Positions 1 to 33,291 of a DNA stretch of 64,000 nucleotides are shown in pieces; the stretch's first letter is position 1; each line of letters opens with the position of its first letter. Under the pieces are notes generated by a model, which saw only the letters and a program-made list of their open reading frames with translations, had not been told where the DNA came from and made no database searches. The stretch comes from Klebsiella phage KPP2018. The position numbers were made by a program, and so were the translations under genes. The stretch lies in the sequence record NC_110934.1. The stretch is one strand, 5' to 3'.

Positions 1-64
1 TCTTGTTCTGTCATGTTGCTCCCCCAGTTCAATTTATGTAATTATTATACAGAACTTTTGGAAA

Positions 65-352
65 CTAAGCAACTACATTTTTTAAGAATTTGATGCCTTT
101 CTTTCTCTTCTTATATTTCCACGTTAATGGATTCTGTCGATTATGAACACTTGAGATCTTTGTCTCATCAAAGTTCTTCAATATCATGTAATCACAAGAT
201 AGTTGTTCTAATGGAATGTGATCACCGTCAAAAGCGTGTACATAAGGTTGTTGACTAGCACGATAATGATAGACTTTGTTAATTCTACGTTTCAGCGACT
301 TATCCGCGCAGTAAATAAAGAAGTTTTCAGGATGCATCAGCAGCTCCTTCAA
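65..352 (-). CDS. hypothetical protein (95 aa); duplicated at 29529-29816
   Basis: ORF track; directly upstream (in transcription) of it lie tRNA genes, probably co-transcribed. Confidence 0.5.
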   Translation of the reverse strand: MKELLMHPENFFIYCADKSLKRRINKVYHYRASQQPYVHAFDGDHIPLEQLSCDYMILKNFDETKISSVHNRQNPLTWKYKKRKKGIKFLKNVVA

Positions 353-354
353 TT

Positions 355-429
355 TGGTGCACCCTGTTCGTATCGAACGAACCTCTCAAGCTCTTCAGGC
401 AAGCGCTAATCCATCTCAGCTAAAGGTGC
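355..429 (-). tRNA. tRNA, anticodon loop CUGAAGA (GAA, Phe-like); anticodon stem has two U-U mismatches
   Basis: Reverse complement GCACCUU..GUUCG-UUCGAUA-CGAAC-AGGGUGC-A-CCA: 7-bp acceptor, D-arm, T-arm and encoded CCA. Confidence 0.65.
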
Positions 430-435
430 AAATTT

Positions 436-512
436 TGGCAGGGGTAAAGGTATTCGAAACCTTTTCATGGGTTTTGGAGGCCCATTTGCAACCTATGCGT
501 ACCCCAATTATT
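436..512 (-). ncRNA. tRNA-like remnant (T-arm AAGGU-UUCGAAU-ACCUU, U1-U72 mismatch, 9-nt anticodon loop); possibly pseudo-tRNA
   Basis: T-arm and acceptor recognisable but D-arm and anticodon arm non-canonical. Confidence 0.3.
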
Positions 513-515
513 AAT

Positions 516-590
516 TGGCACACCCAACGAGGATCGAACTCGTGTTCCCACTGTGAAAGAGTGGTGTCCTAACCGCTAGACGATAGGTGC
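516..590 (-). tRNA. tRNA-Glu (UUC)
   Basis: Revcomp has acceptor, D-arm GUCUAGCGGUUAGGAC, anticodon stem CCACU/AGUGG with loop CUUUCAC, T-arm GAGUUCGAUCCUCG, CCA. Confidence 0.85.
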
Positions 591-597
591 ATTAAAT

Positions 598-685
598 TGG
601 TGGGGAAAGATGGAGTCGAACCACCCGAGTCGCAATGACAACTGATTTACAGTCAGCTCTGCTACCACTTACAGAATATTTCCCC
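598..685 (-). tRNA. tRNA-Tyr (GUA), type II with long variable arm
   Basis: Revcomp GGGGAAA..; anticodon loop CUGUAAA; long variable arm; T-arm GGUUCGACUCC; acceptor GGGGAAA/UUUCCCC; CCA. Confidence 0.8.
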
Positions 686-815
686 ATATTTAGAAGTATT
701 CAAAAATTCTCATTTAAACACTTTTAAATATGTTTCCAAATTAGATAAATATTATATCAAGTTTTATAGTATTGGGCAAGTCAAATTTTAAAGAACTTGC
801 CCAATGCTGTATTAG

Positions 816-1091
816 TTAGTCGAACTTAGGAGTGACAGTTAAGGAGAACGGAAGTTCAAAAACTTCTTCGCCCTCATCACTAATAGTGATTACACGACCT
901 TTAAGTTCAGACATTGAAATATCAATATCAGCTTTTGCATCTGGAGCCATGCCAGCTTCAATACATTTAGCTTTAATTTCCGGCAGAAGTTCTACATCGT
1001 AGAAATAAAGCCATTCAATCTCACCTTCCCAGCCTTCCCAGGATTTACAGATTGCACTTTCAATACCAGCAGCTATAACACGATTTTGCAT
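816..1091 (-). CDS. hypothetical protein (91 aa)
   Basis: ORF track; preceded by conserved early promoter/leader; duplicated at 30280-30555. Confidence 0.55.
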   Translation of the reverse strand: MQNRVIAAGIESAICKSWEGWEGEIEWLYFYDVELLPEIKAKCIEAGMAPDAKADIDISMSELKGRVITISDEGEEVFELPFSLTVTPKFD

Positions 1092-1160
1092 TCGTTAACT
1101 CCTTCATCAATTTATATAACTATTATATCAGAAATTTAAAGCAAAAGGCAAGTACATTTT
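1092..1160 (-). promoter_or_regulatory. Conserved T5-type early promoter (-35 TTGCCT, 17 bp, -10 TATAAT) plus conserved leader/RBS
   Basis: Minus-strand reading: ..TTGCCTtttgctttaaatttctgaTATAATagttatataaattgatgaaggag; member of >20-copy element family. Confidence 0.7.
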
Positions 1161-1181
1161 TAAAAATTCTGTTTGGAGGAG

Positions 1182-1388
1182 CTAAACTCCAGATTCTTCA
1201 GCCAAGTCTAGACTAATAAGAGATATAGCCATAATTGCTGCTCCGTGCTCTTTTTCTCCAGTCTCTTTAGCTAGAGTTATAATATCAAGAAATTGCTTAT
1301 GAAAATCTGCAACCTCTTGAGTTATACCTGCCTCAGCAATCATGCCTTTAAGCATGAAGCGTTGTGCGGTAATTTCAGGATTAGCCAT
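1182..1388 (-). CDS. hypothetical protein (68 aa)
   Basis: ORF track; start ATG overlaps stop of upstream small ORF (ATGGCTAA coupling). Confidence 0.5.
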   Translation of the reverse strand: MANPEITAQRFMLKGMIAEAGITQEVADFHKQFLDIITLAKETGEKEHGAAIMAISLISLDLAEESGV

Positions 1389-1548
1389 GTTGTTTCTCCA
1401 GTTTCATCTTTAATAGTCTACAAATAAAATCAATGTCTTCATCCGTGCCTAGATCTCTATCTTCAAGGGTTGCCTTGAAGTTTTTAGTCAATTCCATGAG
1501 AATAACTTCTCTAGAACGACGTGTTGGCGGAGGTGGATGTCTATACAT
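1381..1548 (-). CDS. hypothetical small protein (55 aa, MYRHPPPPTRRSREVILMEL...)
   Basis: Unlisted (<60 aa) ORF; stop overlaps start of 1182-1388 gene, typical translational coupling. Confidence 0.4.
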   Translation of the reverse strand: MYRHPPPPTRRSREVILMELTKNFKATLEDRDLGTDEDIDFICRLLKMKLEKQHG

Positions 1549-1563
1549 CTTATTTCCTTAATT

Positions 1564-1640
1564 TGGTAGGGGTGGTGGGATTCGAACCCACAAAACCTGA
1601 ATTTTAAGTCCAGTACCTATGCCAATTCGATTACACCCCC
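1564..1640 (-). tRNA. tRNA, anticodon loop CUUAAAA (UAA, Leu-like) but type-I length with short variable loop
   Basis: Revcomp GGGGGUG..acceptor pairs with CACCCCU; anticodon stem CUGGA/UUCAG; T-arm GUGGG-UUCGAAU-CCCAC; A-CCA. Confidence 0.6.
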
Positions 1641-1647
1641 ATGTAGT

Positions 1648-1836
1648 TTAGTCAATTACTTTTGAGGCTTCAAGGTAGTCGATATAGTGTACGTTTTCTA
1701 CCGTAATCATATAATCCGCCACTTTATCCATAGCTTGGGCTTCAGAGGTAGCTCTGGCTAACCTATATCCTTTTCTATACTCATCCGGGTATTCTCTATC
1801 TTGAATAAACACAACATAAACTATATATAGATCCAT
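1648..1836 (-). CDS. hypothetical protein (62 aa)
   Basis: ORF track. Confidence 0.45.
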   Translation of the reverse strand: MDLYIVYVVFIQDREYPDEYRKGYRLARATSEAQAMDKVADYMITVENVHYIDYLEASKVID

Positions 1837-1855
1837 TTGTGACCTCTATTTAATT

Positions 1856-1933
1856 TGGTGGCTCCCCGAGGATTCGAACCTACGTACCTTCCGGTTATGA
1901 GCCGGGTGCTCATACCATATGAGCTTGAGAACC
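1856..1933 (-). tRNA. tRNA-Met/Ile2 (CAU)
   Basis: Revcomp GGUUCUC..; anticodon stem CCGG with loop CUCAUAA; T-loop UUCGAAU (T-stem has mismatches); acceptor with two G-U pairs; CCA. Confidence 0.65.
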
Positions 1934-1939
1934 AAAATC

Positions 1940-2028
1940 TGGCGGAAGAAGTGGGAATCGAACCCACAAGGCTATATTTCAAACCGACAGATTAGCAATC
2001 TGCTGCAATACCATTATGCTATTCTTCC
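1940..2028 (-). tRNA. tRNA-Ser (GCU), type II
   Basis: Revcomp GGAAGAA..; anticodon stem GCAGA/UCUGU, loop UUGCUAA; long variable arm; T-arm GUGGG-UUCGAUU-CCCAC; G-CCA. Confidence 0.8.
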
Positions 2029-2049
2029 GAATTTATAAGATATATTATA

Positions 2050-2571
2050 TTAGAAATTTAGCTTCATAGCAAGAAAATTTTTCAAGTTTTCGGTAGACAT
2101 CTCATCCACATCTACAGGAGAAACAAATCCATTTAATTGTCTAGCAAACTTTTCACCAGCAGGATCATTGTCCCCAACAGCTACCAATTTAAAAGGTAGT
2201 AATTTCAGTTGCTTTAATAACGCTTTTCCTGGAGAAGAACCCAACATTGCCAGGGCTGGATAACCCGCATTATGTAATGCAACTGCCTTAAATACAGATT
2301 CAGCAATCAATACTACTTTTTCATCCCCATTGAGAGTTTCTAGTCCCCATACACACTGTGTAGTAGAATAAGTAAAGTATTTAGCTTCAAAGGGGCACTT
2401 ACCATGACCTTTTGGAGCAGAAGGATTATAAGTTTGATAGCCCCTCAACATTCCAGAGAAATCATACAACGGGACTGTTAGCCACCCTTCCGGACTTAAC
2501 CAGCAATGATATTTATCTGTATCAAATCCTCTAGATAAGAGGTGCTGTGTTAGCTCATCAACATTCATATT
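2050..2571 (-). CDS. Toprim-domain protein (DnaG-primase-like Toprim: E in IAES, DxD in AVGDNDPAG)
   Basis: ORF track 2050-2619; real start is Met17 (MNVDELTQ..) because the conserved TATAAT+ATAAATTTGAGAGAGG leader ends there. Confidence 0.6.
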   Translation of the reverse strand, partial: NMNVDELTQHLLSRGFDTDKYHCWLSPEGWLTVPLYDFSGMLRGYQTYNPSAPKGHGKCPFEAKYFTYSTTQCVWGLETLNGDEKVVLIAESVFKAVALHNAGYPALAMLGSSPGKALLKQLKLLPFKLVAVGDNDPAGEKFARQLNGFVSPVDVDEMSTENLKNFLAMKLNF

Positions 2572-2663
2572 TGGTTCCTCTCTCAAATTTATAGATATAT
2601 TATACAGAGAATTTAGCATTCAAGCAATCAAATTTTTTAACTTTTTAGAGGAAAATCATAGGG

Positions 2664-2686
2664 CACTTAAGGGTAGCAGATAAGTG
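2664..2686 (+). promoter_or_regulatory. Inverted repeat CACTTAAG-N7-CTTAAGTG-like (CACTTA..TAAGTG), candidate operator upstream of Gly-rich gene promoter
   Basis: cacttaagggtagcagataagtg: 6-bp arms are reverse complements. Confidence 0.3.
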
Positions 2687-2744
2687 GTGAGGACCAAAAT
2701 TTGTGACCCCACTAAAAATCCAGGGGCAATTTTTAAAGACCCCT

Positions 2745-2772
2745 TGACATTTTCGCTGGGGTAGTGTAAAGT
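2745..2772 (+). promoter_or_regulatory. sigma70-like promoter (TTGACA, 16 bp, TAAAGT) for the Gly-rich protein operon; copy 1
   Basis: cccTTGACAttttcgctggggtagtgTAAAGTatatg; not of the conserved phage early-promoter class. Confidence 0.55.
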
Positions 2773-2834
2773 ATATGTTATGGATGAGTGATCAAAGAGA
2801 CACACATTTTCTATATACTAGGAGGTGTCAAAAA

Positions 2835-3611
2835 ATGACAGAAGAAGTAGCTAAGAGTCCTGAGACCGTCGCTAGCGTTGCAGCAGAACTGCACCGTCAC
2901 GAGGAATCAGATAAGAAAAAGTGGGAGAAGGTCAGAGCCTACGAAGAGAAACATCGTGAACACGATGAAGATGATGAAGAAGATGACGATGATGAGTATT
3001 GTCATAAATATGGAAAACGTAAAATGCAAGAACCAGTAAACGTATTCACTAGTGGCTTCCCTGGCCTAATGGGTGGTTACCCAGCAAACGCAGGTGCTTT
3101 CGGTGGTGAAGGTATGGGACTATTCGGAGCTATCCTAATCGGTGCTCTATTAACAGGCGGATTCGGTGGTTTTGGTGGATTTGGTGGACGTGGTGTAGTT
3201 GGTGAAGGTACCGCAGTTGATGCAGTACTTCAGAACCAAGATACCGCTAGTATTCTAGCAGCTATTAACACTACTCGTACAGAAGCTAACCAGGGTACTG
3301 GAGCTGTTTTAAGCGCAGTTAACAATGGTTTTAGCCAGACATCCCAAAACCAGAGCCGTGATACTCAGTCTGTACTAACTACGATCTATGGTACGGGTGC
3401 TAATCTGTCTAATCAAATCTGCCAGGAAACTCGCAACGTTATTCAGGGTCAGTTCGATCTTTCTCGCCAGATTGATCAATCTTTCGCAGCTAACCAGATA
3501 GCTCGTGCACAAGATAAGTTTGATTCTGCACAGATCGCTTTCCAGCAGACTTTACAAACTAATAACCAGTTTGCCGCTGTTCAGGCTCAGATGTGTGCTA
3601 ACCAGTTATGA
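2835..3611 (+). pseudogene. Truncated copy (258 aa + 1 junction aa) of Gly-zipper/QN-rich membrane protein gene; truncated at repeat boundary 3605/3606
   Basis: RBS AGGAGG 9 nt before ATG 2835; identical to first 257 codons of the 331-aa gene at 32299-33291, then reads L-stop across the junction. Confidence 0.75.
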
Positions 3612-3711
3612 TAATGATCAAATCGATCAGCAAACGGCGGGCTTTTTGCTGGACACGCTGAAAGCGGAACACTGCACTAAAAAGCAAGCGGCAAAAATTA
3701 TTTTAATGTAA
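3607..3711 (+). pseudogene. Orphan C-terminal gene fragment (..YDNDQIDQQTAGFLLDTLKAEHCTKKQAAKIILM*) lacking N-terminus and start
   Basis: Open frame begins exactly at the repeat junction, ends at TAA 3709-3711, followed by hairpin GGGGCG-aaagtaa-CGCCCC. Confidence 0.5.
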
Positions 3712-3759
3712 TTAATAAAGGGGCGAAAGTAACGCCCCACTAACTAGGGAGTATTACAA

Positions 3760-3909
3760 ATGATTATTTTTCGAGCTATTCTGGCGGGTATCTTGGGCGC
3801 TATTTTATCTTTGTTTGCAATAGCTTTCGATGTTCACGCGGTTATTATCGGCGCGGGTATCGCTGCATTTTCTTATCTGCTGGGCTGCATGACTAGTAAA
3901 GGAGAATAA
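3760..3909 (+). CDS. small hydrophobic membrane protein (49 aa, MIIFRAILAGILGAILSLFAIAF...)
   Basis: Unlisted ORF; two predicted TM stretches; GC-richer than surrounding phage DNA. Confidence 0.5.
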   Translation: MIIFRAILAGILGAILSLFAIAFDVHAVIIGAGIAAFSYLLGCMTSKGE

Positions 3910-3911
3910 AA

Positions 3912-4124
3912 ATGATCCGCAACGTTTCTCTTGCACGTTCGAAAGGCTTTAAGCTGGTGGATGCTAACACGTTCGAGCGGGAAGATTGTAAAATCGAATA
4001 TGTAGCACGTAACAAAAATGCCTTTCGTGTTACTGAGAAAAAATTTGATAAGCGCGGCAACGTGATCGCTGAAACGGTTAAGCACTTTGCCACCTTTTAC
4101 GCTGCGTTTCGTGGGGTACTATGA
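3912..4124 (+). CDS. hypothetical protein (70 aa)
   Basis: ORF track; RBS GGAG 8 nt upstream; start 3 nt after previous stop. Confidence 0.55.
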   Translation: MIRNVSLARSKGFKLVDANTFEREDCKIEYVARNKNAFRVTEKKFDKRGNVIAETVKHFATFYAAFRGVL

Positions 4125-4261
4125 AAAGCGTTATCGTTATTGCCCTTGCAATGGTTGGCGGTTTTACCGCCACCTTATTCAAAAATGACCCCATTTCATT
4201 GGGGATCTTTATGTTATTATCTGGCTATCTAATTGGGAGGTTGTCAAATGGTTATTTATGA
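4121..4261 (+). CDS. small membrane protein (46 aa, MKSVIVIALAMVGGFTATLF...)
   Basis: Unlisted ORF; ATGA overlap with upstream stop; hydrophobic. Confidence 0.5.
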   Translation: MKSVIVIALAMVGGFTATLFKNDPISLGIFMLLSGYLIGRLSNGYL

Positions 4262-4592
4262 GGGCAATCGTTTTGTTGCTAATTGCCGTCCTGCATTATT
4301 AGCAAACTACTTAAATCAGCTTTCCCCAGCTTATAAGGGTGTTATTAATATTTATGAGGGCAAGGCGCATTATAAAATCAATGCGGTCGTTGCCCGTGAA
4401 CTAGCATTTCAATTTTTGACCTTTGCATCTTGTGATATTCAGGTCATGGGGGAAGCATTAATTGCAGAAAATGAAGATGATTTTATTAATATTTTCCGCA
4501 AGATATGCACCGAGCGGCTGATAATGAAAGGCGCGTATATTCAATCCACGGCTGATAGTATTGAAACAGCGTTTCGAAAGGTGGCGCAATGA
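4248..4592 (+). CDS. hypothetical protein (114 aa)
   Basis: ORF track 4233-4592; likely start ATG 4248 after RBS GGGAGG. Confidence 0.55.
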   Translation: MVIYEGNRFVANCRPALLANYLNQLSPAYKGVINIYEGKAHYKINAVVARELAFQFLTFASCDIQVMGEALIAENEDDFINIFRKICTERLIMKGAYIQSTADSIETAFRKVAQ

Positions 4593-4747
4593 AAAAGTTT
4601 TTAATAGCTGGCATGTTTCCGTTGTTGCCTTATGTAATTTGCTGGGCTTTATACGCTCATGGCGCTAGTGTTCCCGCTGTGGCTTCATTTGGTGTATCGG
4701 CGGGCTTTCTAGCTGGACTATTAGCAAGCGTATACTTACGCAAATAA
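4589..4747 (+). CDS. small membrane protein (52 aa, MKKFLIAGMFPLLPYVICWALYAHG...)
   Basis: Unlisted ORF; ATGA overlap with stop of previous gene. Confidence 0.5.
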   Translation: MKKFLIAGMFPLLPYVICWALYAHGASVPAVASFGVSAGFLAGLLASVYLRK

Positions 4748-4766
4748 TTAATAATGGGGCGTTATT

Positions 4767-4961
4767 ATGAGCAATAAAATTGTTGTAACCAAAATCAGTA
4801 CAATGGTTGATGTTTTTTACGTGCCCGATACGCCGGAAAACCGACAAGCGGTCGAGCGTGGAGAATATGATAAAGTGATTTATGATCACGATGGTTATTA
4901 TCAGCATTTAGTGGATTCCTACGGGGAGGAGGAGAAGATCACGCATCGACTACCAGACTAA
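4767..4961 (+). CDS. hypothetical protein (64 aa)
   Basis: ORF track; last gene before the non-coding repeat block. Confidence 0.5.
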   Translation: MSNKIVVTKISTMVDVFYVPDTPENRQAVERGEYDKVIYDHDGYYQHLVDSYGEEEKITHRLPD

Positions 4962-5000
4962 TAATCACGGGGCGCAACTATCAGGAAGTGCCCCCAATTC

Positions 5001-5025
5001 TCAAATGAGAATGATTCTCATTTGA
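5001..5025. promoter_or_regulatory. 25-bp palindrome TCAAATGAGAATGATTCTCATTTGA (Fur-box-like GATAATGATAATCATTATC relative)
   Basis: Perfect inverted repeat; half-site AATGAGAAT recurs in the downstream iterons. Confidence 0.4.
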
Positions 5026-5217
5026 CCGCGCCCGCGATGGTTAGCCTGCTAATGGTTAGGGTGTTACGTGTCGCCTTGTGTGATCGTTAGCGTGCTAACT
5101 AATTTTCAAGCCTCCTTCAATTTTGCCCTTGTTTTAGTATCCCCAACAAAATTAAACGCGTTAGAATGCGTTTGAGAGCGTTTTAACGCTATATTAGAAT
5201 TATTCACTGCGTAGGAA

Positions 5218-5237
5218 TACTGTATATTTATACAGTA
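5218..5237. promoter_or_regulatory. LexA (SOS) box TACTGTATATTTATACAGTA
   Basis: Perfect CTGT-N8-ACAG palindrome with AT-rich spacer matching E. coli LexA consensus. Confidence 0.55.
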
Positions 5238-5246
5238 GGATAAGCT

Positions 5247-5255
5247 GTGGATAAG
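5247..5255 (-). promoter_or_regulatory. DnaA box (TTATCCACA on minus strand)
   Basis: tgtggataa; second identical box at 5319-5327 and a 1-mismatch box (tgttgataa) at 5258-5266. Confidence 0.5.
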
Positions 5256-5318
5256 TCTGTTGATAACGCTTCAAAACGGCTAGAATTTTGTCAAGTCAAA
5301 TCGTGCTGTTAGTAAGTC

Positions 5319-5327
5319 TGTGGATAA
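5319..5327 (-). promoter_or_regulatory. DnaA box (TTATCCACA on minus strand), within repeated 13-mer AGTCTGTGGATAA
   Basis: Exact 9-mer consensus. Confidence 0.5.
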
Positions 5328-5350
5328 CTTAAATAACAGTGTTTCTCACT

Positions 5351-5530
5351 TCCGTTCTTAAATGAGAATCATTATCATTTGCATTTCACTATCTAACTAA
5401 TAATCATTCCGCTTTTTAAATGAGAATCATTCCGCTTTTTAAATGAGATTGATTCTCATTCCGCTTTTTAAATGCGAATTATTATCATTCTCATTCCGCT
5501 TTTTAAATGAGAATGATTCTTATTATCATT
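5351..5530. repeat. Iteron array A: 4-5 direct repeats of ~23-33 bp core CATTCCGCTTTTTAAATGAGAAT(CATT)
   Basis: cattccgctttttaaatgagaat repeated head-to-tail at 5405, 5428, 5455, 5488 with Fur-box-like AATCATTATCATT tails. Confidence 0.7.
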
Positions 5531-5538
5531 CGTATTTA

Positions 5539-5564
5539 GCGCAGGGCAATTGCCCTGCGCTTTT
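5539..5564. terminator. 22-bp perfect GC-rich palindrome GCGCAGGGCAATTGCCCTGCGC followed by TTTT (intrinsic-terminator-like or protein-binding site)
   Basis: Perfect dyad with 9-bp GC-rich arms and U-tract. Confidence 0.5.
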
Positions 5565-5787
5565 GTGCAAATCCGACATTGCTCCACGGGTGTTACGTGC
5601 GGGCGTGTATGTGCGAATCCGACAATCTTTGGTAGTGTGCAAATCCGACCCGAAAAATTTTTATAGTGTGCAAATCCGACAATGAATTTTCCCAAAAACT
5701 CCAGCAATCTCGAACTGCGTTCGAATCCTGTGGGGTATGTGCAAATTCGACACGGTTTTTCTAGGATTAAGATGTGCAAATCCGACA
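5565..5787. repeat. Iteron array B: six direct copies of GTGCAAATCCGACA (14 bp; variants GTGCGAATCCGACA, GTGCAAATTCGACA)
   Basis: Copies at 5565, 5611, 5637, 5668, 5739, 5774, irregular 26-71 bp spacing. Confidence 0.75.
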
Positions 5788-6098
5788 AGATTTTTGTGAC
5801 TTCGATTGGAGGGTGTGTGATTGTGTGGGTTTGGGGAGAAGATGAGAGAGCGAGAGAAAATAAGGGAAGAAACTGGAGGAGCAGCATGGGTGGCGTGTAA
5901 CGCCTGATTTGCTGCGTTTTTGGGGAAGAGTTGAGAAGATTTGGGTTAATTGGGCTTGGGGCGAGATAAAGTAAAATTTTATTAGCAAAATGGGGCAAAA
6001 TAGCTTGACAAGTGAAAATTCCTGTGGCTCTAAAAACTCAGGCAATCATGGGCCTTCGGCCCGAAATAATGCTGCTATTTTCAGGAGATTATATGTGC

Positions 6099-6165
6099 CT
6101 AAAAACTTAGGCATTTGTGCAAATCCGACCATAAATTTCTAGAAACACAATGTGCAAATCCGACA
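6099..6165. repeat. Palindrome TGCCTAAAAACTTAGGCA plus two further GTGCAAATCCGAC(A/C) iterons (6117, 6152)
   Basis: Same 14-mer as array B, 35 bp apart. Confidence 0.65.
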
Positions 6166-6204
6166 GTAATTTCTGGAAATGTGTTTTCAAAAAATGTCTC
6201 CTAG

Positions 6205-6295
6205 AAATAACCGCCCTCCCTATAACCGCCCTGTATTAAACCGCCTAGTATATGTTCCTAGAAACTTAGGAGAACCGCCCACTAGAAGCGTGATA
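6205..6295. repeat. Four direct repeats of AACCGCC(C) at ~13-22 bp spacing interleaved with CTAGAAA motifs
   Basis: ataaccgccctcc / ataaccgccctgt / taaaccgcctagt / gaaccgcccact. Confidence 0.5.
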
Positions 6296-26215: not shown

Positions 26216-26221
26216 ATTGTT

Positions 26222-26420: not shown

Positions 26421-26424
26421 AATT

Positions 26425-26501: not shown

Positions 26502-26506
26502 ATGTT

Positions 26507-26844: not shown

Positions 26845-27213
26845 TCAAGCAAGTACATTTTTAGCGATTTCTTGTAGTTCCTTTACATCACGAACGTAAA
26901 GGTAATCAGAGCTTCCAGAGTGCATACTTTGCATAACCACACCTTCATCTGGTGCATTATCCTTCAGAGTAATTCCTAACCAGAACTCGGCAAAACTAGG
27001 TGTTATCTCACCTTGACTTGCCTTGAATACATCATATTCTGTAAGTTCTTGACCAGTAGATAATCCCAAATATACAGAACTAAGATCAATCTCTTTATGA
27101 GACTCATAAAACTCCGATAGATCCTTTTCCATATCCCAGCCATGCTGTAGCGCGAACTCCATTGTCACATGACCGAAATAACCTTGAATCTTGCTTGATA
27201 ATTGCATTTGCAA
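26845..27213 (-). CDS. hypothetical protein (122 aa)
   Basis: ORF track; promoter element 26810-26870 downstream-of-stop/upstream-of-next. Confidence 0.55.
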   Translation of the reverse strand: MQMQLSSKIQGYFGHVTMEFALQHGWDMEKDLSEFYESHKEIDLSSVYLGLSTGQELTEYDVFKASQGEITPSFAEFWLGITLKDNAPDEGVVMQSMHSGSSDYLYVRDVKELQEIAKNVLA

Positions 27214-27232
27214 TTCCTTATTTTGAGTTAAT

Positions 27233-27306
27233 TGGTACTCGGTGATAGAATCGAACTATCGCAACCGCCGTGTAAAGACGGGGTTCTCCCATTAAACTAA
27301 CCGAGC
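27233..27306 (-). tRNA. tRNA-Val (UAC)
   Basis: Acceptor GCUCGGU/ACCGAGU, anticodon stem CCGUC/GGCGG loop UUUACAC, T-arm GAUAG-UUCGAUU-CUAUC, A-CCA. Confidence 0.75.
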
Positions 27307-27310
27307 AATT

Positions 27311-27389
27311 TGGTAGATCGCCTGGGACTCGAACCCAGAACCTTCCGATTAAAAGTCGGATGCTACTAAACCTATTGAGCTAGCGATCT
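27311..27389 (-). tRNA. tRNA-Lys (UUU)
   Basis: Acceptor AGAUCGC/GCGAUCU, anticodon stem UCCGA/UCGGA loop CUUUUAA, T-arm CUGGG-UUCGAGU-CCCAG, A-CCA. Confidence 0.8.
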
Positions 27390-27578
27390 ATTAGTAACCA
27401 TTGTATACTTCTTTAATAGAGTGAACCTTCAAGTAAGGGTGATTAGTATTAAACTCTGACATTACTTCATCCCAATTTTTACCATAATGGGCAAGTAAGG
27501 ATTTTGATGTATTCTTACCTGAACGTTTGTCGCTTACTACTAATCGAAATACTTTCATTTCGAAATCCCCTATTAAAA

Positions 27579-27656
27579 TGGAAGCGGGTGCAGGAATCGA
27601 ACCTACCTCTTTCTAGCTTATGAGACTAGTGATCTCTACCAGAGATCTAACCCGCA
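27579..27656 (-). tRNA. tRNA-Met/Ile2 (CAU), with U1-U72 mismatch
   Basis: Anticodon stem CUAGU/GCUAG loop CUCAUAA, T-arm GUAGG-UUCGAUU-CCUGC, U-CCA. Confidence 0.6.
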
Positions 27657-27662
27657 ATTGTT

Positions 27663-27738
27663 TGGTCAGTGCGGCAGGACTCGAACCTGCGACCCGAAGC
27701 ATCCAAGGCTCCCACGCTACCAACTGCGCTACGCACTG
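27663..27738 (-). tRNA. tRNA-Pro (UGG)
   Basis: Acceptor CAGUGCG/CGCACUG, anticodon loop CUUGGAU, T-arm GCAGG-UUCGAGU-CCUGC, A-CCA. Confidence 0.75.
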
Positions 27739-28400
27739 TTAATTCTTTTATTGTGGAGGAATATTAATAATTCGTCCGTCTACACAATAAACGGTACTAG
27801 GAATTGTACTATATATATGTAGAAATTCTTTATATTACTCTCCCCGCCACAGAAATTTTTAGCAAATTCATACTCTTTATTAATGGTTGAGTCAAATTTA
27901 AAACAACCAGTAAGTAGGAATACAGATAGTAATAAAATTTTCTTCATTTAGCTTTCCTTCTCTTCACTTTATAAAATATATTATACAGATAATTAAGCAG
28001 AATAGCAAATGAATTTTTAATAAATTTACTTATTGTGTAGGCCACCTGGAGGCTACCAACCCCACGGCTGACAAAGAAGTTTGCGAGACCTCTCTTAAAT
28101 GCCAGAATAGATCCGCCGATCTATCGGAACCTACATAATAAGTAAACTTTATAGTGTCATTCTAGACAGGACTCGAACCTGTTATCACTTGTGCGGACTT
28201 ACGAGAACCATTCTTTCACTCGAATCGAACGAGCTTCTGCCCTCGCCAAGCTGGTTTCCCCGTCAACCACGCTAGAATGTTTAATTGTTTTCAGTGCAAG
28301 AGTCCGAGTCTTGGACACGACCGCTTCGCAAGTACATAGGCAGCTTATCATGAATCAGCACTTCCGAATTGCTAGCTCCGTGTTCTGCACTGAAATTTTA

Positions 28401-28748
28401 TTAGTTTAACCGTAAAGTATTATCTACTTCACCATTAATTGTTCGGCATTCTTCTGGGATTGCCGGGGTGGCCTTGTATTCCCACCATTCAGAACCGTCA
28501 TATTCACCACGTTCTAACCAAGTTCCATCAGTAAACCATACGTTACCATAAAGCAATTGTCCACCGAAACCAGAATCATATTTAAAGTCTAGATTATTTA
28601 GAAAATCTTCAATATCTTTTTCTGTATAACCTACGGGTAATACCCAAACTTCTTTGTCCCCATAATAACCGAATTCTATCTTAATACACTTAACTTCAGA
28701 CTTAGTATTCTTTAGGGCAAGTAACAACTCTTCTTTAGCATTAATCAT
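28401..28748 (-). CDS. hypothetical protein (115 aa)
   Basis: ORF track. Confidence 0.55.
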   Translation of the reverse strand: MINAKEELLLALKNTKSEVKCIKIEFGYYGDKEVWVLPVGYTEKDIEDFLNNLDFKYDSGFGGQLLYGNVWFTDGTWLERGEYDGSEWWEYKATPAIPEECRTINGEVDNTLRLN

Positions 28749-28774
28749 AACATATTTCTCGTGCTAGTTTAATT

Positions 28775-28851
28775 TGGCGCGACCGATGGGATTCGAACCC
28801 ACATTCTCTCCCGTGACAGGGGAGTACCATTACCAAGCCAGCCCCGGTCGC
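28775..28851 (-). tRNA. tRNA-Asp (GUC)
   Basis: Acceptor GCGACCG/CGGUCGC, anticodon stem CUCCC/GGGAG loop CUGUCAC, T-arm GUGGG-UUCGAAU-CCCAU, G-CCA. Confidence 0.8.
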
Positions 28852-28860
28852 ATAATTCAT

Positions 28861-29046
28861 TTACTCAGCTTTGAGTTTTTCAATAGCTGCATTAAGTTCC
28901 TTAAGAAACTCTTTTCGTACATTAAGACGATTAAGACTTACTAGTATATCATGTTTAAGTTCTTCGATATATTTCTTCTCAACTTCAATATTGTTGATAG
29001 TGCTATCACGATGAACTTCTAGCTGCGCAATTACATTCTTGGACAT
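28861..29046 (-). CDS. hypothetical coiled-coil protein (61 aa)
   Basis: ORF track. Confidence 0.4.
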   Translation of the reverse strand: MSKNVIAQLEVHRDSTINNIEVEKKYIEELKHDILVSLNRLNVRKEFLKELNAAIEKLKAE

Positions 29047-29071
29047 GCTTGTTTCCTCAGTTATTAATAAA

Positions 29072-29147
29072 AATGGTATCTGTGGCTGAATTCGATATCA
29101 GCAATGATAGCTGGTTGGCTACCGGTTTACTTAACTCTACACAGAAT
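29072..29147 (-). ncRNA. tRNA-like gene with aberrant T-loop and U1-U72 mismatch (anticodon arm unclear)
   Basis: Acceptor UUCUGUG/CACAGAU + A-CCA and T-arm GCUGA..UCAGC present, anticodon arm non-canonical. Confidence 0.35.
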
Positions 29148-29148
29148 T

Positions 29149-29231
29149 TGGCGGGCCGTGTAGGATTCGAACCTACGTTGTCTTTCGACATGGATTAACA
29201 GTCCACCGCCAAACCGCTTGGCTAACGACCC
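29149..29231 (-). tRNA. tRNA-Asn (GUU) with extended variable region
   Basis: Acceptor GGGUCGU/ACGGCCC, anticodon stem GUGGA/UCCAU loop CUGUUAA, T-arm GUAGG-UUCGAAU-CCUAC, G-CCA; 83 nt. Confidence 0.65.
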
Positions 29232-29383
29232 TAAATTTATATTGCTGACTAGGATTTTCACCTAGACGGAGTTAGCACCGTAGCGTGTAGCGGCATACCC
29301 CTCCAAACCGTGCCTCATCTTTCAATTACGGAGACAGTGTTCCTACGCGTGCCTGAATTGATTTAACAATTCTTTCAGCAAAT

Positions 29384-29459
29384 TGGACGACCGCATGAGA
29401 TTTGAACTCACATAAGAAGGATTTGCAATCCTTCTCCTAAGCCATTCAGCCAACGGTCG
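29384..29459 (-). tRNA. tRNA-Cys (GCA)
   Basis: Acceptor CGACCGU/GCGGUCG, anticodon stem AAGGA/UCCUU loop UUGCAAA, T-arm GUGAG-UUCAAAU-CUCAU, U-CCA; driven by conserved promoter at 29480-29555. Confidence 0.75.
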
Positions 29460-29528
29460 ATTTATCTTGTTCTGTCATGTTGCTCCCCCAGTTCAATTTA
29501 TGTAATTATTATACAGAACTTTTGGAAA

Positions 29529-29816
29529 CTAAGCAACTACATTTTTTAAGAATTTGATGCCTTTCTTTCTCTTCTTATATTTCCACGTTAATGGATTCTG
29601 TCGATTATGAACACTTGAGATCTTTGTCTCATCAAAGTTCTTCAATATCATGTAATCACAAGATAGTTGTTCTAATGGAATGTGATCACCGTCAAAAGCG
29701 TGTACATAAGGTTGTTGACTAGCACGATAATGATAGACTTTGTTAATTCTACGTTTCAGCGACTTATCCGCGCAGTAAATAAAGAAGTTTTCAGGATGCA
29801 TCAGCAGCTCCTTCAA
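29529..29816 (-). CDS. hypothetical protein (95 aa), repeat copy 2 of 65-352
   Basis: Identical to copy 1. Confidence 0.5.
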   Translation of the reverse strand: MKELLMHPENFFIYCADKSLKRRINKVYHYRASQQPYVHAFDGDHIPLEQLSCDYMILKNFDETKISSVHNRQNPLTWKYKKRKKGIKFLKNVVA

Positions 29817-29818
29817 TT

Positions 29819-29893
29819 TGGTGCACCCTGTTCGTATCGAACGAACCTCTCAAGCTCTTCAGGCAAGCGCTAATCCATCTCAGCTAAAGGTGC
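29819..29893 (-). tRNA. tRNA (GAA, Phe-like), copy 2
   Basis: Identical to 355-429. Confidence 0.65.
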
Positions 29894-29979
29894 AAATTTT
29901 GGCAGGGGTAAAGGTATTCGAAACCTTTTCATGGGTTTTGGAGGCCCATTTGCAACCTATGCGTACCCCAATTATTAAT

Positions 29980-30054
29980 TGGCACACCCAACGAGGATCG
30001 AACTCGTGTTCCCACTGTGAAAGAGTGGTGTCCTAACCGCTAGACGATAGGTGC
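29980..30054 (-). tRNA. tRNA-Glu (UUC), copy 2
   Basis: Identical to 516-590. Confidence 0.85.
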
Positions 30055-30061
30055 ATTAAAT

Positions 30062-30149
30062 TGGTGGGGAAAGATGGAGTCGAACCACCCGAGTCGCAAT
30101 GACAACTGATTTACAGTCAGCTCTGCTACCACTTACAGAATATTTCCCC
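30062..30149 (-). tRNA. tRNA-Tyr (GUA), copy 2
   Basis: Identical to 598-685. Confidence 0.8.
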
Positions 30150-30279
30150 ATATTTAGAAGTATTCAAAAATTCTCATTTAAACACTTTTAAATATGTTTC
30201 CAAATTAGATAAATATTATATCAAGTTTTATAGTATTGGGCAAGTCAAATTTTAAAGAACTTGCCCAATGCTGTATTAG

Positions 30280-30555
30280 TTAGTCGAACTTAGGAGTGAC
30301 AGTTAAGGAGAACGGAAGTTCAAAAACTTCTTCGCCCTCATCACTAATAGTGATTACACGACCTTTAAGTTCAGACATTGAAATATCAATATCAGCTTTT
30401 GCATCTGGAGCCATGCCAGCTTCAATACATTTAGCTTTAATTTCCGGCAGAAGTTCTACATCGTAGAAATAAAGCCATTCAATCTCACCTTCCCAGCCTT
30501 CCCAGGATTTACAGATTGCACTTTCAATACCAGCAGCTATAACACGATTTTGCAT
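30280..30555 (-). CDS. hypothetical protein (91 aa), copy 2
   Basis: Identical to 816-1091. Confidence 0.55.
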   Translation of the reverse strand: MQNRVIAAGIESAICKSWEGWEGEIEWLYFYDVELLPEIKAKCIEAGMAPDAKADIDISMSELKGRVITISDEGEEVFELPFSLTVTPKFD

Positions 30556-30645
30556 TCGTTAACTCCTTCATCAATTTATATAACTATTATATCAGAAATT
30601 TAAAGCAAAAGGCAAGTACATTTTTAAAAATTCTGTTTGGAGGAG

Positions 30646-30852
30646 CTAAACTCCAGATTCTTCAGCCAAGTCTAGACTAATAAGAGATATAGCCATAATT
30701 GCTGCTCCGTGCTCTTTTTCTCCAGTCTCTTTAGCTAGAGTTATAATATCAAGAAATTGCTTATGAAAATCTGCAACCTCTTGAGTTATACCTGCCTCAG
30801 CAATCATGCCTTTAAGCATGAAGCGTTGTGCGGTAATTTCAGGATTAGCCAT
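30646..30852 (-). CDS. hypothetical protein (68 aa), copy 2
   Basis: Identical to 1182-1388. Confidence 0.5.
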   Translation of the reverse strand: MANPEITAQRFMLKGMIAEAGITQEVADFHKQFLDIITLAKETGEKEHGAAIMAISLISLDLAEESGV

Positions 30853-31027
30853 GTTGTTTCTCCAGTTTCATCTTTAATAGTCTACAAATAAAATCAATGT
30901 CTTCATCCGTGCCTAGATCTCTATCTTCAAGGGTTGCCTTGAAGTTTTTAGTCAATTCCATGAGAATAACTTCTCTAGAACGACGTGTTGGCGGAGGTGG
31001 ATGTCTATACATCTTATTTCCTTAATT

Positions 31028-31104
31028 TGGTAGGGGTGGTGGGATTCGAACCCACAAAACCTGAATTTTAAGTCCAGTACCTATGCCAATTCGATTACAC
31101 CCCC
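31028..31104 (-). tRNA. tRNA (UAA, Leu-like, type-I length), copy 2
   Basis: Identical to 1564-1640. Confidence 0.6.
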
Positions 31105-31111
31105 ATGTAGT

Positions 31112-31300
31112 TTAGTCAATTACTTTTGAGGCTTCAAGGTAGTCGATATAGTGTACGTTTTCTACCGTAATCATATAATCCGCCACTTTATCCATAGCTT
31201 GGGCTTCAGAGGTAGCTCTGGCTAACCTATATCCTTTTCTATACTCATCCGGGTATTCTCTATCTTGAATAAACACAACATAAACTATATATAGATCCAT
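31112..31300 (-). CDS. hypothetical protein (62 aa), copy 2
   Basis: Identical to 1648-1836. Confidence 0.45.
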   Translation of the reverse strand: MDLYIVYVVFIQDREYPDEYRKGYRLARATSEAQAMDKVADYMITVENVHYIDYLEASKVID

Positions 31301-31319
31301 TTGTGACCTCTATTTAATT

Positions 31320-31397
31320 TGGTGGCTCCCCGAGGATTCGAACCTACGTACCTTCCGGTTATGAGCCGGGTGCTCATACCATATGAGCTTGAGAACC
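31320..31397 (-). tRNA. tRNA-Met/Ile2 (CAU), copy 2
   Basis: Identical to 1856-1933. Confidence 0.65.
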
Positions 31398-31403
31398 AAA
31401 ATC

Positions 31404-31492
31404 TGGCGGAAGAAGTGGGAATCGAACCCACAAGGCTATATTTCAAACCGACAGATTAGCAATCTGCTGCAATACCATTATGCTATTCTTCC
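31404..31492 (-). tRNA. tRNA-Ser (GCU), copy 2
   Basis: Identical to 1940-2028. Confidence 0.8.
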
Positions 31493-31513
31493 GAATTTAT
31501 AAGATATATTATA

Positions 31514-32035
31514 TTAGAAATTTAGCTTCATAGCAAGAAAATTTTTCAAGTTTTCGGTAGACATCTCATCCACATCTACAGGAGAAACAAATCCATTTAA
31601 TTGTCTAGCAAACTTTTCACCAGCAGGATCATTGTCCCCAACAGCTACCAATTTAAAAGGTAGTAATTTCAGTTGCTTTAATAACGCTTTTCCTGGAGAA
31701 GAACCCAACATTGCCAGGGCTGGATAACCCGCATTATGTAATGCAACTGCCTTAAATACAGATTCAGCAATCAATACTACTTTTTCATCCCCATTGAGAG
31801 TTTCTAGTCCCCATACACACTGTGTAGTAGAATAAGTAAAGTATTTAGCTTCAAAGGGGCACTTACCATGACCTTTTGGAGCAGAAGGATTATAAGTTTG
31901 ATAGCCCCTCAACATTCCAGAGAAATCATACAACGGGACTGTTAGCCACCCTTCCGGACTTAACCAGCAATGATATTTATCTGTATCAAATCCTCTAGAT
32001 AAGAGGTGCTGTGTTAGCTCATCAACATTCATATT
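31514..32035 (-). CDS. Toprim-domain protein, copy 2
   Basis: Identical to 2050-2571. Confidence 0.6.
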   Translation of the reverse strand, partial: NMNVDELTQHLLSRGFDTDKYHCWLSPEGWLTVPLYDFSGMLRGYQTYNPSAPKGHGKCPFEAKYFTYSTTQCVWGLETLNGDEKVVLIAESVFKAVALHNAGYPALAMLGSSPGKALLKQLKLLPFKLVAVGDNDPAGEKFARQLNGFVSPVDVDEMSTENLKNFLAMKLNF

Positions 32036-32208
32036 TGGTTCCTCTCTCAAATTTATAGATATATTATACAGAGAATTTAGCATTCAAGCAATCAAATTTT
32101 TTAACTTTTTAGAGGAAAATCATAGGGCACTTAAGGGTAGCAGATAAGTGGTGAGGACCAAAATTTGTGACCCCACTAAAAATCCAGGGGCAATTTTTAA
32201 AGACCCCT

Positions 32209-32236
32209 TGACATTTTCGCTGGGGTAGTGTAAAGT
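32209..32236 (+). promoter_or_regulatory. sigma70-like promoter (TTGACA-16-TAAAGT) of Gly-rich/Q-rich/Cys-rich operon, copy 2
   Basis: Identical to 2745-2772. Confidence 0.55.
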
Positions 32237-32298
32237 ATATGTTATGGATGAGTGATCAAAGAGACACACATTTTCTATATACTAGGAGGTGTCAAAAA

Positions 32299-33291
32299 AT
32301 GACAGAAGAAGTAGCTAAGAGTCCTGAGACCGTCGCTAGCGTTGCAGCAGAACTGCACCGTCACGAGGAATCAGATAAGAAAAAGTGGGAGAAGGTCAGA
32401 GCCTACGAAGAGAAACATCGTGAACACGATGAAGATGATGAAGAAGATGACGATGATGAGTATTGTCATAAATATGGAAAACGTAAAATGCAAGAACCAG
32501 TAAACGTATTCACTAGTGGCTTCCCTGGCCTAATGGGTGGTTACCCAGCAAACGCAGGTGCTTTCGGTGGTGAAGGTATGGGACTATTCGGAGCTATCCT
32601 AATCGGTGCTCTATTAACAGGCGGATTCGGTGGTTTTGGTGGATTTGGTGGACGTGGTGTAGTTGGTGAAGGTACCGCAGTTGATGCAGTACTTCAGAAC
32701 CAAGATACCGCTAGTATTCTAGCAGCTATTAACACTACTCGTACAGAAGCTAACCAGGGTACTGGAGCTGTTTTAAGCGCAGTTAACAATGGTTTTAGCC
32801 AGACATCCCAAAACCAGAGCCGTGATACTCAGTCTGTACTAACTACGATCTATGGTACGGGTGCTAATCTGTCTAATCAAATCTGCCAGGAAACTCGCAA
32901 CGTTATTCAGGGTCAGTTCGATCTTTCTCGCCAGATTGATCAATCTTTCGCAGCTAACCAGATAGCTCGTGCACAAGATAAGTTTGATTCTGCACAGATC
33001 GCTTTCCAGCAGACTTTACAAACTAATAACCAGTTTGCCGCTGTTCAGGCTCAGATGTGTGCTAACCAGAACTCTCTGGAACGTCAGATCGCTGAATGTT
33101 GCTGTGAACTTCAGACTGCGATCGCTGGTGTAACTACTGCGCGTATCCAGGATGAGTTAGACGCATGTCGCCTACGTGAAGCAATCGCTGCGGGTAGCGG
33201 TGCTAACGGTCAGGTAATTAATCAAATCGCTTTAAGTCTTGGTGCTATCACTCAGACTCTGGCTGGTCTGCAGGCTAAACTGCCGGCTTAA
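32299..33291 (+). CDS. Gly-zipper membrane protein with acidic N-terminus and Q/N/S/T-rich coiled C-terminal domain (331 aa)
   Basis: RBS AGGAGG; acidic DEDDEEDDDDE stretch, hydrophobic GLFGAILIGALLTGGFGGFGGFGG segment, then QN-rich low-complexity domain with CCC motif; ~50% GC vs ~38% background. Confidence 0.65.
   Translation: MTEEVAKSPETVASVAAELHRHEESDKKKWEKVRAYEEKHREHDEDDEEDDDDEYCHKYGKRKMQEPVNVFTSGFPGLMGGYPANAGAFGGEGMGLFGAILIGALLTGGFGGFGGFGGRGVVGEGTAVDAVLQNQDTASILAAINTTRTEANQGTGAVLSAVNNGFSQTSQNQSRDTQSVLTTIYGTGANLSNQICQETRNVIQGQFDLSRQIDQSFAANQIARAQDKFDSAQIAFQQTLQTNNQFAAVQAQMCANQNSLERQIAECCCELQTAIAGVTTARIQDELDACRLREAIAAGSGANGQVINQIALSLGAITQTLAGLQAKLPA

What the first reader, a model, noticed from the sequence alone, without database searches (positions are those of the whole stretch)
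1..33069. Perfect 3.6-kb direct repeat duplicating a tRNA/small-ORF block and the 5' end of a membrane-protein gene
Positions 1-3605 are base-identical to 29465-33069, a separation of 29,464 bp.
- The unit carries six tRNA genes, five small ORFs, a Toprim-domain ORF, a sigma70-like promoter and 770 bp of the Gly-rich gene.
- Copy 2 sits in a coherent context: tRNA-Cys upstream, and the gene continues to 331 aa.
- Copy 1 ends abruptly at 3605 and is fused to unrelated DNA.
- The left edge of copy 1 coincides with the window start, so the repeat may be longer than 3.6 kb.

A 100%-identical multi-kb repeat inside a lytic phage genome is unstable and unusual. Possible explanations: a very recent duplication or illegitimate recombination; a packaging-related terminal-redundancy structure; a chimeric/defective particle; or an assembly or record wrap-around artefact. 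If real, it doubles the dosage of six tRNAs and places a second strong promoter reading into the downstream block.
Basis: seen in the sequence. Interest (0 to 1): 0.75.

Follow-up and report, generated by a model that had tools for sequence, protein, structure and literature searches.

The report
Untrimmed assembly overlap in phage record
The perfect 3.6-kb repeat is the visible tail of a 29.5-kb head-to-tail duplication in the GenBank record of the T5-like Klebsiella phage KPP2018, and it is most likely an assembly or record-building error rather than biology.

Summary
Window 1-3605 equals 29465-33069 with no mismatches, and copy 1 is joined bluntly at 3605/3606 to DNA from the phage's long terminal repeat.

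The repeat is larger than reported. Exact protein look-ups place the window in Klebsiella phage KPP2018 (GenBank OQ031075.1, 137,988 bp). Seven genes sampled across window 3.7-18.8 kb and at 816-1091 each carry two KPP2018 accessions, or two locus tags 67-68 apart. The junction-truncated 258-aa protein is itself an annotated CDS (KPP2018_118). The junction is therefore inside the deposited record, between two tandem copies of a 29,464-bp unit.

Removing one copy gives 108,524 bp, which is normal for a T5-like genome with its terminal repeat collapsed. KPP2018 is the longest Tequintavirus record on file.

- The junction has no microhomology and cuts two ORFs.
- It is absent from about 418 related phage records and from three large contig collections.
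- It lies at no terminal-repeat boundary and at no annotated T5 nick.
- Another group removed the duplication before comparing genomes.
- A second oversize T5-like record, MG969412.1, is an over-long contig later replaced by a 110-kb record.

Best reading: two sequence ends that overlapped by 29.5 kb were abutted instead of merged. Interest is low.

The parts
1..3605 (.). Last 3,605 bp of copy 1 of the 29,464-bp duplicated unit; the rest of copy 1 lies upstream of the window.
   Evidence: Identical to 29465-33069. Genes here carry two KPP2018 tags, e.g. the 91-aa ORF at 816-1091 is _113 and _181.
3606..33069 (.). Complete copy 2 of the 29,464-bp unit. It corresponds to about T5 7,749-38,807 and to CDS KPP2018_119 to _186.
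   Evidence: Colinear with Th1, T5 and other relatives. Sampled proteins at 3760-3909, 3912-4124, 4248-4592, 6623-7378, 7707-8321 and 18035-18787 each have two KPP2018 accessions or tags 67-68 apart.
29465..33069 (.). The part of copy 2 that matches window 1-3605.
   Evidence: Relatives align continuously across both of its edges.
3605..3606 (.). Novel junction ...GCTAACCAG|TTATGATAATG...: unit end joined to unit start, blunt, with no shared bases.
   Evidence: One search compares it with Th1 and with copy 2. The 32-mer spanning it is absent from IMG/VR, GTDB genomes and JGI metagenomes. No phage record spans it.
2835..3611 (+). Junction-truncated Gly-rich protein gene, 258 aa, ending ...CANQL*. 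Annotated as KPP2018_118 (WBF69907.1).
   Evidence: Exact look-up finds it only in KPP2018, on a 137,988-bp contig.
32299..33291 (+). Intact Gly-rich protein gene, 330 aa, homologue of T5.077. Annotated as KPP2018_186 (WBF69975.1). No Pfam domain.
   Evidence: Homology to T5.077.
3606..3711 (+). 3' remnant (34 codons plus stop) of the T5.012 / Th1_008 homologue, cut after codon 42. The intact 76-aa gene is KPP2018_050, just before copy 1.
355..2028 (-). Six tRNA genes: Phe 355-429, Glu 516-590, Tyr 598-684, Leu 1564-1640, an Rfam-only tRNA at 1859-1933, and Ser 1940-2028. They repeat at +29,464.
   Evidence: Equivalent T5 tRNA cluster.
2050..2619 (-). Toprim-domain ORF, 189 aa, homologue of T5.076 (annotated 'DNA primase').
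   Evidence: Pfam Toprim_2 at E = 4.2e-5. T5 annotation.
2744..2772 (+). Sigma-70-like promoter (TTGACA-17-TAAAGT) upstream of the Gly-rich gene. Counterpart of T5 promoter P12.
3606..6030 (.). Part of the unit derived from the right-hand 2.4 kb of the long terminal repeat. It includes the injection-stop-signal homologue, with eight GTGCAAATCCGAC repeats at 5565-6164.
   Evidence: The terminal-repeat ends of T5 (10,219) and MM-1 (10,407) map to about window 6,030. Repeats.

Best explanation
The window comes from GenBank record OQ031075.1 (Klebsiella phage KPP2018, a T5-like Tequintavirus, 137,988 bp). That record contains a head-to-tail duplication of a 29,464-bp segment. The window begins 3,605 bp before the end of the first copy, so only a 3.6-kb repeat is visible.

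The duplication is most likely an artefact of how the record was built. T5-like genomes assemble as a pseudo-circle because their terminal repeats collapse. An assembler can run past its own starting point and give a contig about 1.27 genome lengths long. Alternatively it can give two contigs that overlap by 29.5 kb.

If the ends of such sequences are abutted without trimming the overlap, the result matches what is seen. This can happen when the genome is re-oriented to a new start, or when contigs are concatenated. The expected result is two perfectly identical tandem copies, plus a blunt junction at arbitrary mid-gene positions, which are the old contig ends. The true genome would be about 108.5 kb with one terminal repeat collapsed.

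Shown here: the tandem structure, its size, the position of the junction in the record, and its uniqueness. Inferred: that reads would not support the junction.
For: 1. Source and extent.
- Proteins unique to KPP2018 match the window exactly. The 204-aa product of 7707-8321 is a one-member cluster with accessions WBF69849/WBF69916 and tags _060/_127.
- dNMP kinase has WBF69874 and WBF69941.
- The 49-, 70- and 114-aa genes right of the junction are _051/_119, _052/_120 and _053/_121.
- The 91-aa gene at 816-1091 is _113/_181.
- Each copy spans 68 CDS tags.

2. The truncated 258-aa junction protein is annotated as KPP2018_118 and the intact 330-aa form as _186. The intact T5.012 homologue is _050, immediately before copy 1. 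Copy 1 therefore enters from its natural context, and only the 3605/3606 junction is novel.

3. Genome size. 137,988 - 29,464 = 108,524 bp. The Tequintavirus median is 110,832 bp and KPP2018 is the longest on record. Related records listed are 102-125 kb, apart from one 84-kb record.

4. The copies show zero differences in 3,605 bp, and all seven sampled gene pairs are identical at protein level.

5. The junction is blunt, without microhomology. It cuts both ORFs, one of them mid-codon. It does not use any of the 65-nt promoter repeats that would favour real recombination.

6. The junction is absent elsewhere. No phage record spans it. The 2050-3605 block is single-copy in every one of the 60 sampled records, apart from a few weak secondary hits, out of 418 related records with 438 places in all. 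There are no hits in IMG/VR, GTDB genomes or JGI metagenomes.

7. [quoted passage not shown]

8. Precedent. MG969412.1 ('UNVERIFIED' GE_vB_N5, 148,669 bp) has its first 41.3 kb repeated as its last 42.1 kb. The phage was re-deposited at 110,015 bp.
Against: - No reads, coverage data or assembly metadata were available, so the junction was never tested directly.
- The record was deposited as a complete genome with the junction annotated.
- I could not retrieve the record itself. Identity of the two copies between window -25,858 and 0 rests on the seven sampled genes and matching CDS counts, not on DNA.
- CDS numbering differs by one between the copies in two places. One case was traced to an ORF annotated only in copy 1 although it is present in both. 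The other was not traced.
- The published remark says '~20 kb', not 29.5 kb.
Confidence: 0.86

Rival explanations
1. A genuine, very recent 29.5-kb tandem duplication carried by viable KPP2018 virions. It would have arisen by illegitimate (non-homologous) recombination between sister genomes or within a concatemer, and would double 22 tRNA genes and about 67 early genes.
For: The junction is present and annotated in a deposited 'complete genome'. Perfect identity fits a recent event. Tandem duplications are known in other phages (general knowledge).
Against: With both terminal repeats the virion DNA would be about 148 kb, against 121.75 kb for T5 and 117-125 kb for relatives deposited with both repeats. 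T5 has a T=13 capsid (PMC5646251) and packages a defined-length genome. The unit also duplicates the injection-stop region and the terminal-repeat/unique boundary. The junction has no microhomology. No relative shows anything similar. Another group discarded the duplication.
Confidence: 0.05
2. The junction exists in a minority of molecules, such as defective or rearranged genomes, a 29.5-kb circle formed from T5-equivalent 7.7-38.8 kb, or chimeric library fragments or reads. The assembler threaded the main path through it. The junction would then be physically real in the sample but not part of the phage genome.
For: A blunt junction without homology is typical of ligation or read chimeras. 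The geometry, unit end joined to unit start, is what a small circle or one chimeric long read would give.
Against: No data on reads. Assemblers normally prune low-coverage links. The simpler end-abutting model explains the same facts, and MG969412.1 shows that over-long contigs occur for these phages.
Confidence: 0.07
3. The repeat is the phage's packaging-related terminal redundancy, or an artefact of the 64-kb window wrapping round the ends of the source record.
For: T5-like phages do carry roughly 10-kb perfect terminal repeats. The right side of the junction lies inside that repeat.
Against: The duplicated block is the tRNA region, not the pre-early genes. The junction maps to T5 7,749, which is 2.4 kb from the terminal-repeat boundary and not at a genome end. 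The junction lies between CDS _118 and _119 of the record, with 50 CDS before copy 1, so it is not a record end.
Confidence: 0.01

Closest known systems
Over-long contigs of circular or pseudo-circular phage assemblies (untrimmed terminal overlap), e.g. MG969412.1 'UNVERIFIED Salmonella phage GE_vB_N5'
   Same: Both are T5-like records tens of kb longer than the family norm. Removing one copy of a multi-tens-of-kb direct repeat restores about 106-110 kb. The repeat ends fall at arbitrary positions.
   Different: In MG969412.1 the two copies sit at the two ends of the record and are only 93.5% identical. In KPP2018 they are adjacent and, where visible, 100% identical. This implies an extra step, either rotation or concatenation of polished sequence.
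Long terminal repeats of T5-like phages (Tequintavirus; T5 1-10,219)
   Same: A perfect multi-kb direct repeat in a T5-like genome. The junction's right side lies within terminal-repeat sequence.
   Different: The terminal repeats carry the pre-early (first-step-transfer) genes and sit at the two physical ends, about 111 kb apart. This repeat carries the tRNA/early region, has a period of 29,464 bp, and its edges match neither terminal-repeat boundary.
Genuine tandem duplications in phage genomes
   Same: Head-to-tail copies with a single novel junction.
   Different: From general knowledge, real ones are bounded by capsid capacity and often form at short homologies. Here the size exceeds the capacity inferred for the family, and the junction shows no homology.

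Membership tests
Tequintavirus (T5-like phage) genome | Colinear, high-identity match to T5-like genomes, including the terminal-repeat genes, tRNA cluster and early replication genes. | tested here: met
   92-98% identity and 90-98% coverage to Th1, PNJ1902, L6jm and others. NCBI taxonomy places KPP2018 in Tequintavirus.
T5-type long terminal repeat | The repeat comprises the pre-early region at the genome ends (T5 1-10,219, with dmp/A1/A2-type genes). | tested here: not met
   The repeated block maps to about T5 34.6-38.8 kb, covering tRNAs, T5.076 and T5.077.
T5-type long terminal repeat | The repeat edges coincide with the terminal-repeat boundaries. | tested here: not met
   The junction is at T5 7,749, inside the T5.012 homologue. 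The terminal-repeat right boundary maps to about window 6,030.
Assembly or record artefact (abutted overlapping ends) | The copies are identical, and removing one restores a genome length normal for the family. | tested here: met
   0 mismatches in 3,605 bp. Seven gene pairs are identical at protein level. 137,988 - 29,464 = 108,524, against a median of 110,832.
Assembly or record artefact (abutted overlapping ends) | One novel blunt junction at arbitrary positions, found in no independent sequence. | tested here: met
   No microhomology, and both ORFs are cut. Absent from phage records, IMG/VR, GTDB genomes and JGI metagenomes.
Assembly or record artefact (abutted overlapping ends) | No reads span the junction, and read depth over the unit equals single-copy depth. 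| not testable with these tools
   No read data were available, and the record itself was not retrievable.
Genuine tandem duplication in virion DNA | The enlarged genome still fits the capsid. | tested here: inconclusive
   Arithmetic only: about 108.5 + 10 + 29.5 = 148 kb, against 121.75 kb for T5 and at most 125 kb for relatives seen here. No physical measurement.
Breakage at T5 single-strand interruptions (nick sites) | The breakpoints coincide with mapped nicks (consensus Pu|GCGC). | tested here: not met
   T5 major nicks are annotated at 9,748/9 and 39,746/7. The breakpoints map to 7,749 and 38,807. A GCGC lies 1 nt from one breakpoint only, in a locally GCGC-rich stretch.

The most novel reading that the evidence does not exclude
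KPP2018 virions really carry a 29.5-kb tandem duplication of the early/tRNA region. This would double 22 tRNA genes and duplicate the injection-stop region. It would mean that a T5-like capsid and packaging system can tolerate about 22% extra DNA, or that the phage compensates in some other way, for example with shortened terminal repeats.
Probability: 0.05. Interest if true: 0.6.

Novelty: not a real feature. Interest (0 to 1): 0.08.

Why it matters
As biology it probably does not matter. As data hygiene it does.

- OQ031075.1 is the exemplar of the species Tequintavirus KPP2018 and is quoted as the longest Tequintavirus.
- Its inflated length, its 68 duplicated CDS and 22 duplicated tRNA genes, and one chimeric truncated protein (WBF69907.1, which has its own UniRef entry) all propagate into databases, pangenome counts, tRNA statistics and intergenomic-similarity calculations.
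- Anyone scanning genomes for unusual repeats will hit this record again.

If the duplication were real, it would challenge the assumed packaging limit of T5-like capsids.

Tried and rejected
1. Window or record wrap-around. Rejected because the junction protein is an annotated internal CDS (_118) with neighbours on both sides.

2. Terminal-repeat or packaging structure. Rejected on coordinates.

3. T5 nick sites as breakpoints. This looked tempting because the 7.9% and 32.6% nicks are about 30 kb apart and a GCGC abuts one breakpoint. The annotated nicks are 2.0 and 0.94 kb away, the other breakpoint has no GCGC, and GCGC is locally frequent.

4. Recombination at the repeated 65-nt early-promoter elements. 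Neither breakpoint lies in one.

5. Finding the junction elsewhere. An exact 32-mer scan of IMG/VR, GTDB genomes and JGI metagenomes found nothing. Loci sharing either flank are relatives at 85-99% identity, not the source.

6. Fetching the source DNA.
- The look-up of encoding contigs returned nothing for four window proteins.
- It returned only relatives for the ligase.
- OQ031075 is not in the annotated collections.
The region upstream of the window was therefore reconstructed only from protein accessions and locus tags.

7. The one-tag shifts between copies (offsets of 68 versus 67). One was traced to a 52-aa ORF annotated only in copy 1 although it is present in both. The second shift, somewhere in window 18.8-30.3 kb, was not traced.
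Full report
**The observation**

Window 1-3605 is identical to 29465-33069, with 0 mismatches. Identity ends exactly at 3605/33069, after which the offset-29,464 match rate is about 25% (family D3). A 3.6-kb exact match cannot arise by chance. Copy 1 starts at window base 1, so the window gives only a lower bound on the repeat length.

**What the DNA is**

The window is a T5-like phage (Demerecviridae, Tequintavirus).
- From 3606 onward it is colinear with relatives at 92-98% identity: Th1 from its position 7075, PNJ1902, L6jm and others.
- The repeated block is part of the tRNA/early region. It holds six tRNAs by Rfam, one of which (1859-1933) ARAGORN misses.
- It also holds small ORFs, a Toprim-domain ORF homologous to T5.076, a promoter matching T5 P12, and the first 771 bp of a Gly-rich 330-aa gene homologous to T5.077.
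- Copy 2 is in its natural context. Related contigs align straight across both of its edges.

**The junction**

At 3605/3606 the Gly-rich gene is cut after 257 of its own codons and joined to codon 42 of the T5.012 / Th1_008 homologue. That small ORF lies inside the long terminal repeat, at T5 coordinate 7,749.
- The left side corresponds to T5 38,807.
- No base is shared at the join...AACCAG|TTATGA... in the window, against ...GGCGCT|TTATGA... in every relative, and ...AACCAG|AACTCT... in copy 2.
- The terminal repeat's right boundary maps to about window 6,030. The junction is therefore 2.4 kb inside the terminal repeat and not at its edge.

**Identifying the source and the true extent**

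Exact-sequence look-ups show that several window proteins belong only to Klebsiella phage KPP2018, on a 137,988-bp contig. Two papers cite that record as OQ031075.1, and the genes occur in it twice:

| Gene (window) | KPP2018 accessions or tags |
|---|---|
| 7707-8321, 204 aa (one-member cluster) | WBF69849 / WBF69916, tags _060 / _127 |
| 6623-7378 | _058 / _125 |
| dNMP kinase, 18035-18787 | WBF69874 / WBF69941 |
| 3760-3909, 49 aa | _051 / _119 |
| 3912-4124, 70 aa | _052 / _120 |
| 4248-4592, 114 aa | _053 / _121 |
| 816-1091, 91 aa | _113 / _181 |

- The junction-truncated 258-aa protein (...CANQL*) is annotated as KPP2018_118 and exists in no other record. The intact 330-aa form is _186.
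- The intact 76-aa T5.012 homologue is _050.

The deposited record therefore reads: 50 CDS, then copy 1 (_051 to _118), then the junction, then copy 2 (_119 to _186), then the rest. The finding is the tail end of a 29,464-bp tandem duplication. Copy 1 is entered from its natural upstream context. The junction is internal to the record, which rules out a window wrap-around.

The locus-tag offset changes from 68 to 67 in one place. The cause is a 52-aa ORF (4589-4747) annotated only in copy 1, although the identical ORF is present in copy 2. A second one-tag shift was not traced.

**Real or artefact**

Several lines point to an artefact.
- Length. 137,988 - 29,464 = 108,524 bp, normal for a T5-like genome with one terminal repeat collapsed. 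A 2025 survey gives a Tequintavirus median of 110,832 bp and names KPP2018 as the longest.
- Capacity. With both terminal repeats a real genome would be about 148 kb, against 121.75 kb for T5 and at most 125 kb for relatives seen here. T5 has a T=13 capsid (PMC5646251). That this exceeds its capacity is my inference, not a measurement.
- Junction anatomy. It is blunt and without homology, it breaks two ORFs, and it avoids the many 65-nt promoter repeats that real recombination would favour.
- Uniqueness. No phage record spans the junction. The block is single-copy in all 60 sampled records of the 418 related ones, 438 places in all, apart from a few weak secondary hits. The junction 32-mer is absent from IMG/VR, GTDB genomes and JGI metagenomes.
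- Independent handling. The authors of the BF23 paper 'removed a ~20-kb duplication from the KPP2018 genome' before alignment (PMC10644984).
- Precedent. MG969412.1 ('UNVERIFIED' GE_vB_N5, 148,669 bp) has its first 41.3 kb repeated as its last 42.1 kb at 93.5% identity. The same phage was later deposited at 110,015 bp.

T5-like genomes assemble as pseudo-circles, so assemblers can overshoot.

**Most likely mechanism**

Two sequence ends overlapping by 29,464 bp were abutted rather than merged. They could be the two ends of one over-long contig that was re-oriented, or two overlapping contigs that were concatenated. Either route gives exactly two identical tandem copies and one blunt junction at the former contig ends.

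This step is inferred. No reads or assembly metadata could be consulted, and the record itself could not be fetched. I put the artefact at 0.86. A minority or chimeric molecule captured by the assembler gets 0.07. A real duplication in viable virions gets 0.05. A terminal-repeat or wrap-around explanation gets about 0.01.

**Leads that failed**

T5's site-specific nicks at 7.9% and 32.6% of the genome are about 30 kb apart, and a GCGC abuts one breakpoint. However, the annotated nicks (T5 9,748/9 and 39,746/7) are 2.0 and 0.94 kb from the breakpoints. The other breakpoint has no GCGC, and GCGC is locally frequent.

**Verdict**

The feature is most likely not biological, and its existence in the record has already been noted in print. 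Interest is low, except as a database-quality flag for OQ031075.1 and its chimeric protein WBF69907.1.

Noticed in passing
L030-L032 (MG969412.1, 1-148669): 'UNVERIFIED: Salmonella phage GE_vB_N5' is 148,669 bp. Its first 41,320 bp repeat as its last 42,129 bp at 93.5% identity, and its genes are fragmented. It is an over-long, error-rich contig. The phage was later deposited as MW006479.1 at 110,015 bp.
   Followed up: yes
window 5565-6164 (+): Eight copies of GTGCAAATCCGAC lie within 600 bp, out of 9 matches in the whole window; none of 100 shuffles reached 9. They sit in a stretch with no convincing genes. This is the homologue of the T5 injection-stop-signal region at the right end of the terminal repeat (D5, 21, 59).
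   Followed up: partly
window 1859-1933 (-) and 31323-31397 (-): Rfam scores a tRNA here at 40.3 bits, but ARAGORN does not report it. By position it is the counterpart of T5 tRNA-Ile2(CAU).
   Followed up: partly
window 23-48524 (- strand) and 53706-60882 (+ strand): There are 18 and 15 overlapping copies of a roughly 65-nt element (AATTTAT...TATTATAC...AGCAA...TTTTT), plus a + strand family of 4. In T5 the equivalent positions are annotated as the 75-nt early promoters. The strand switch near 48-53 kb marks divergent early transcription units.
   Followed up: no
window 3606, and Th1 7070-7074: In every relative the bases just left of the terminal-repeat-side breakpoint read GCGCT, so the core of the T5 nick consensus (Pu|GCGC) ends 1 nt from the break. 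It is probably coincidence, because GCGC is frequent in 3.6-5 kb and the annotated T5 nicks lie elsewhere.
   Followed up: yes
window 4589-4747 (+): This 52-aa ORF is annotated in KPP2018 only once (WBF69843.1, _054, copy 1), although the identical ORF is present in copy 2. Identical DNA was annotated inconsistently within one record.
   Followed up: yes
window 24521-24607 (-): ARAGORN calls an 87-nt tRNA-Thr(tgt) here, whereas T5's tRNA-Thr is 75 nt. It may be an extended call, or may contain an insertion.
   Followed up: no
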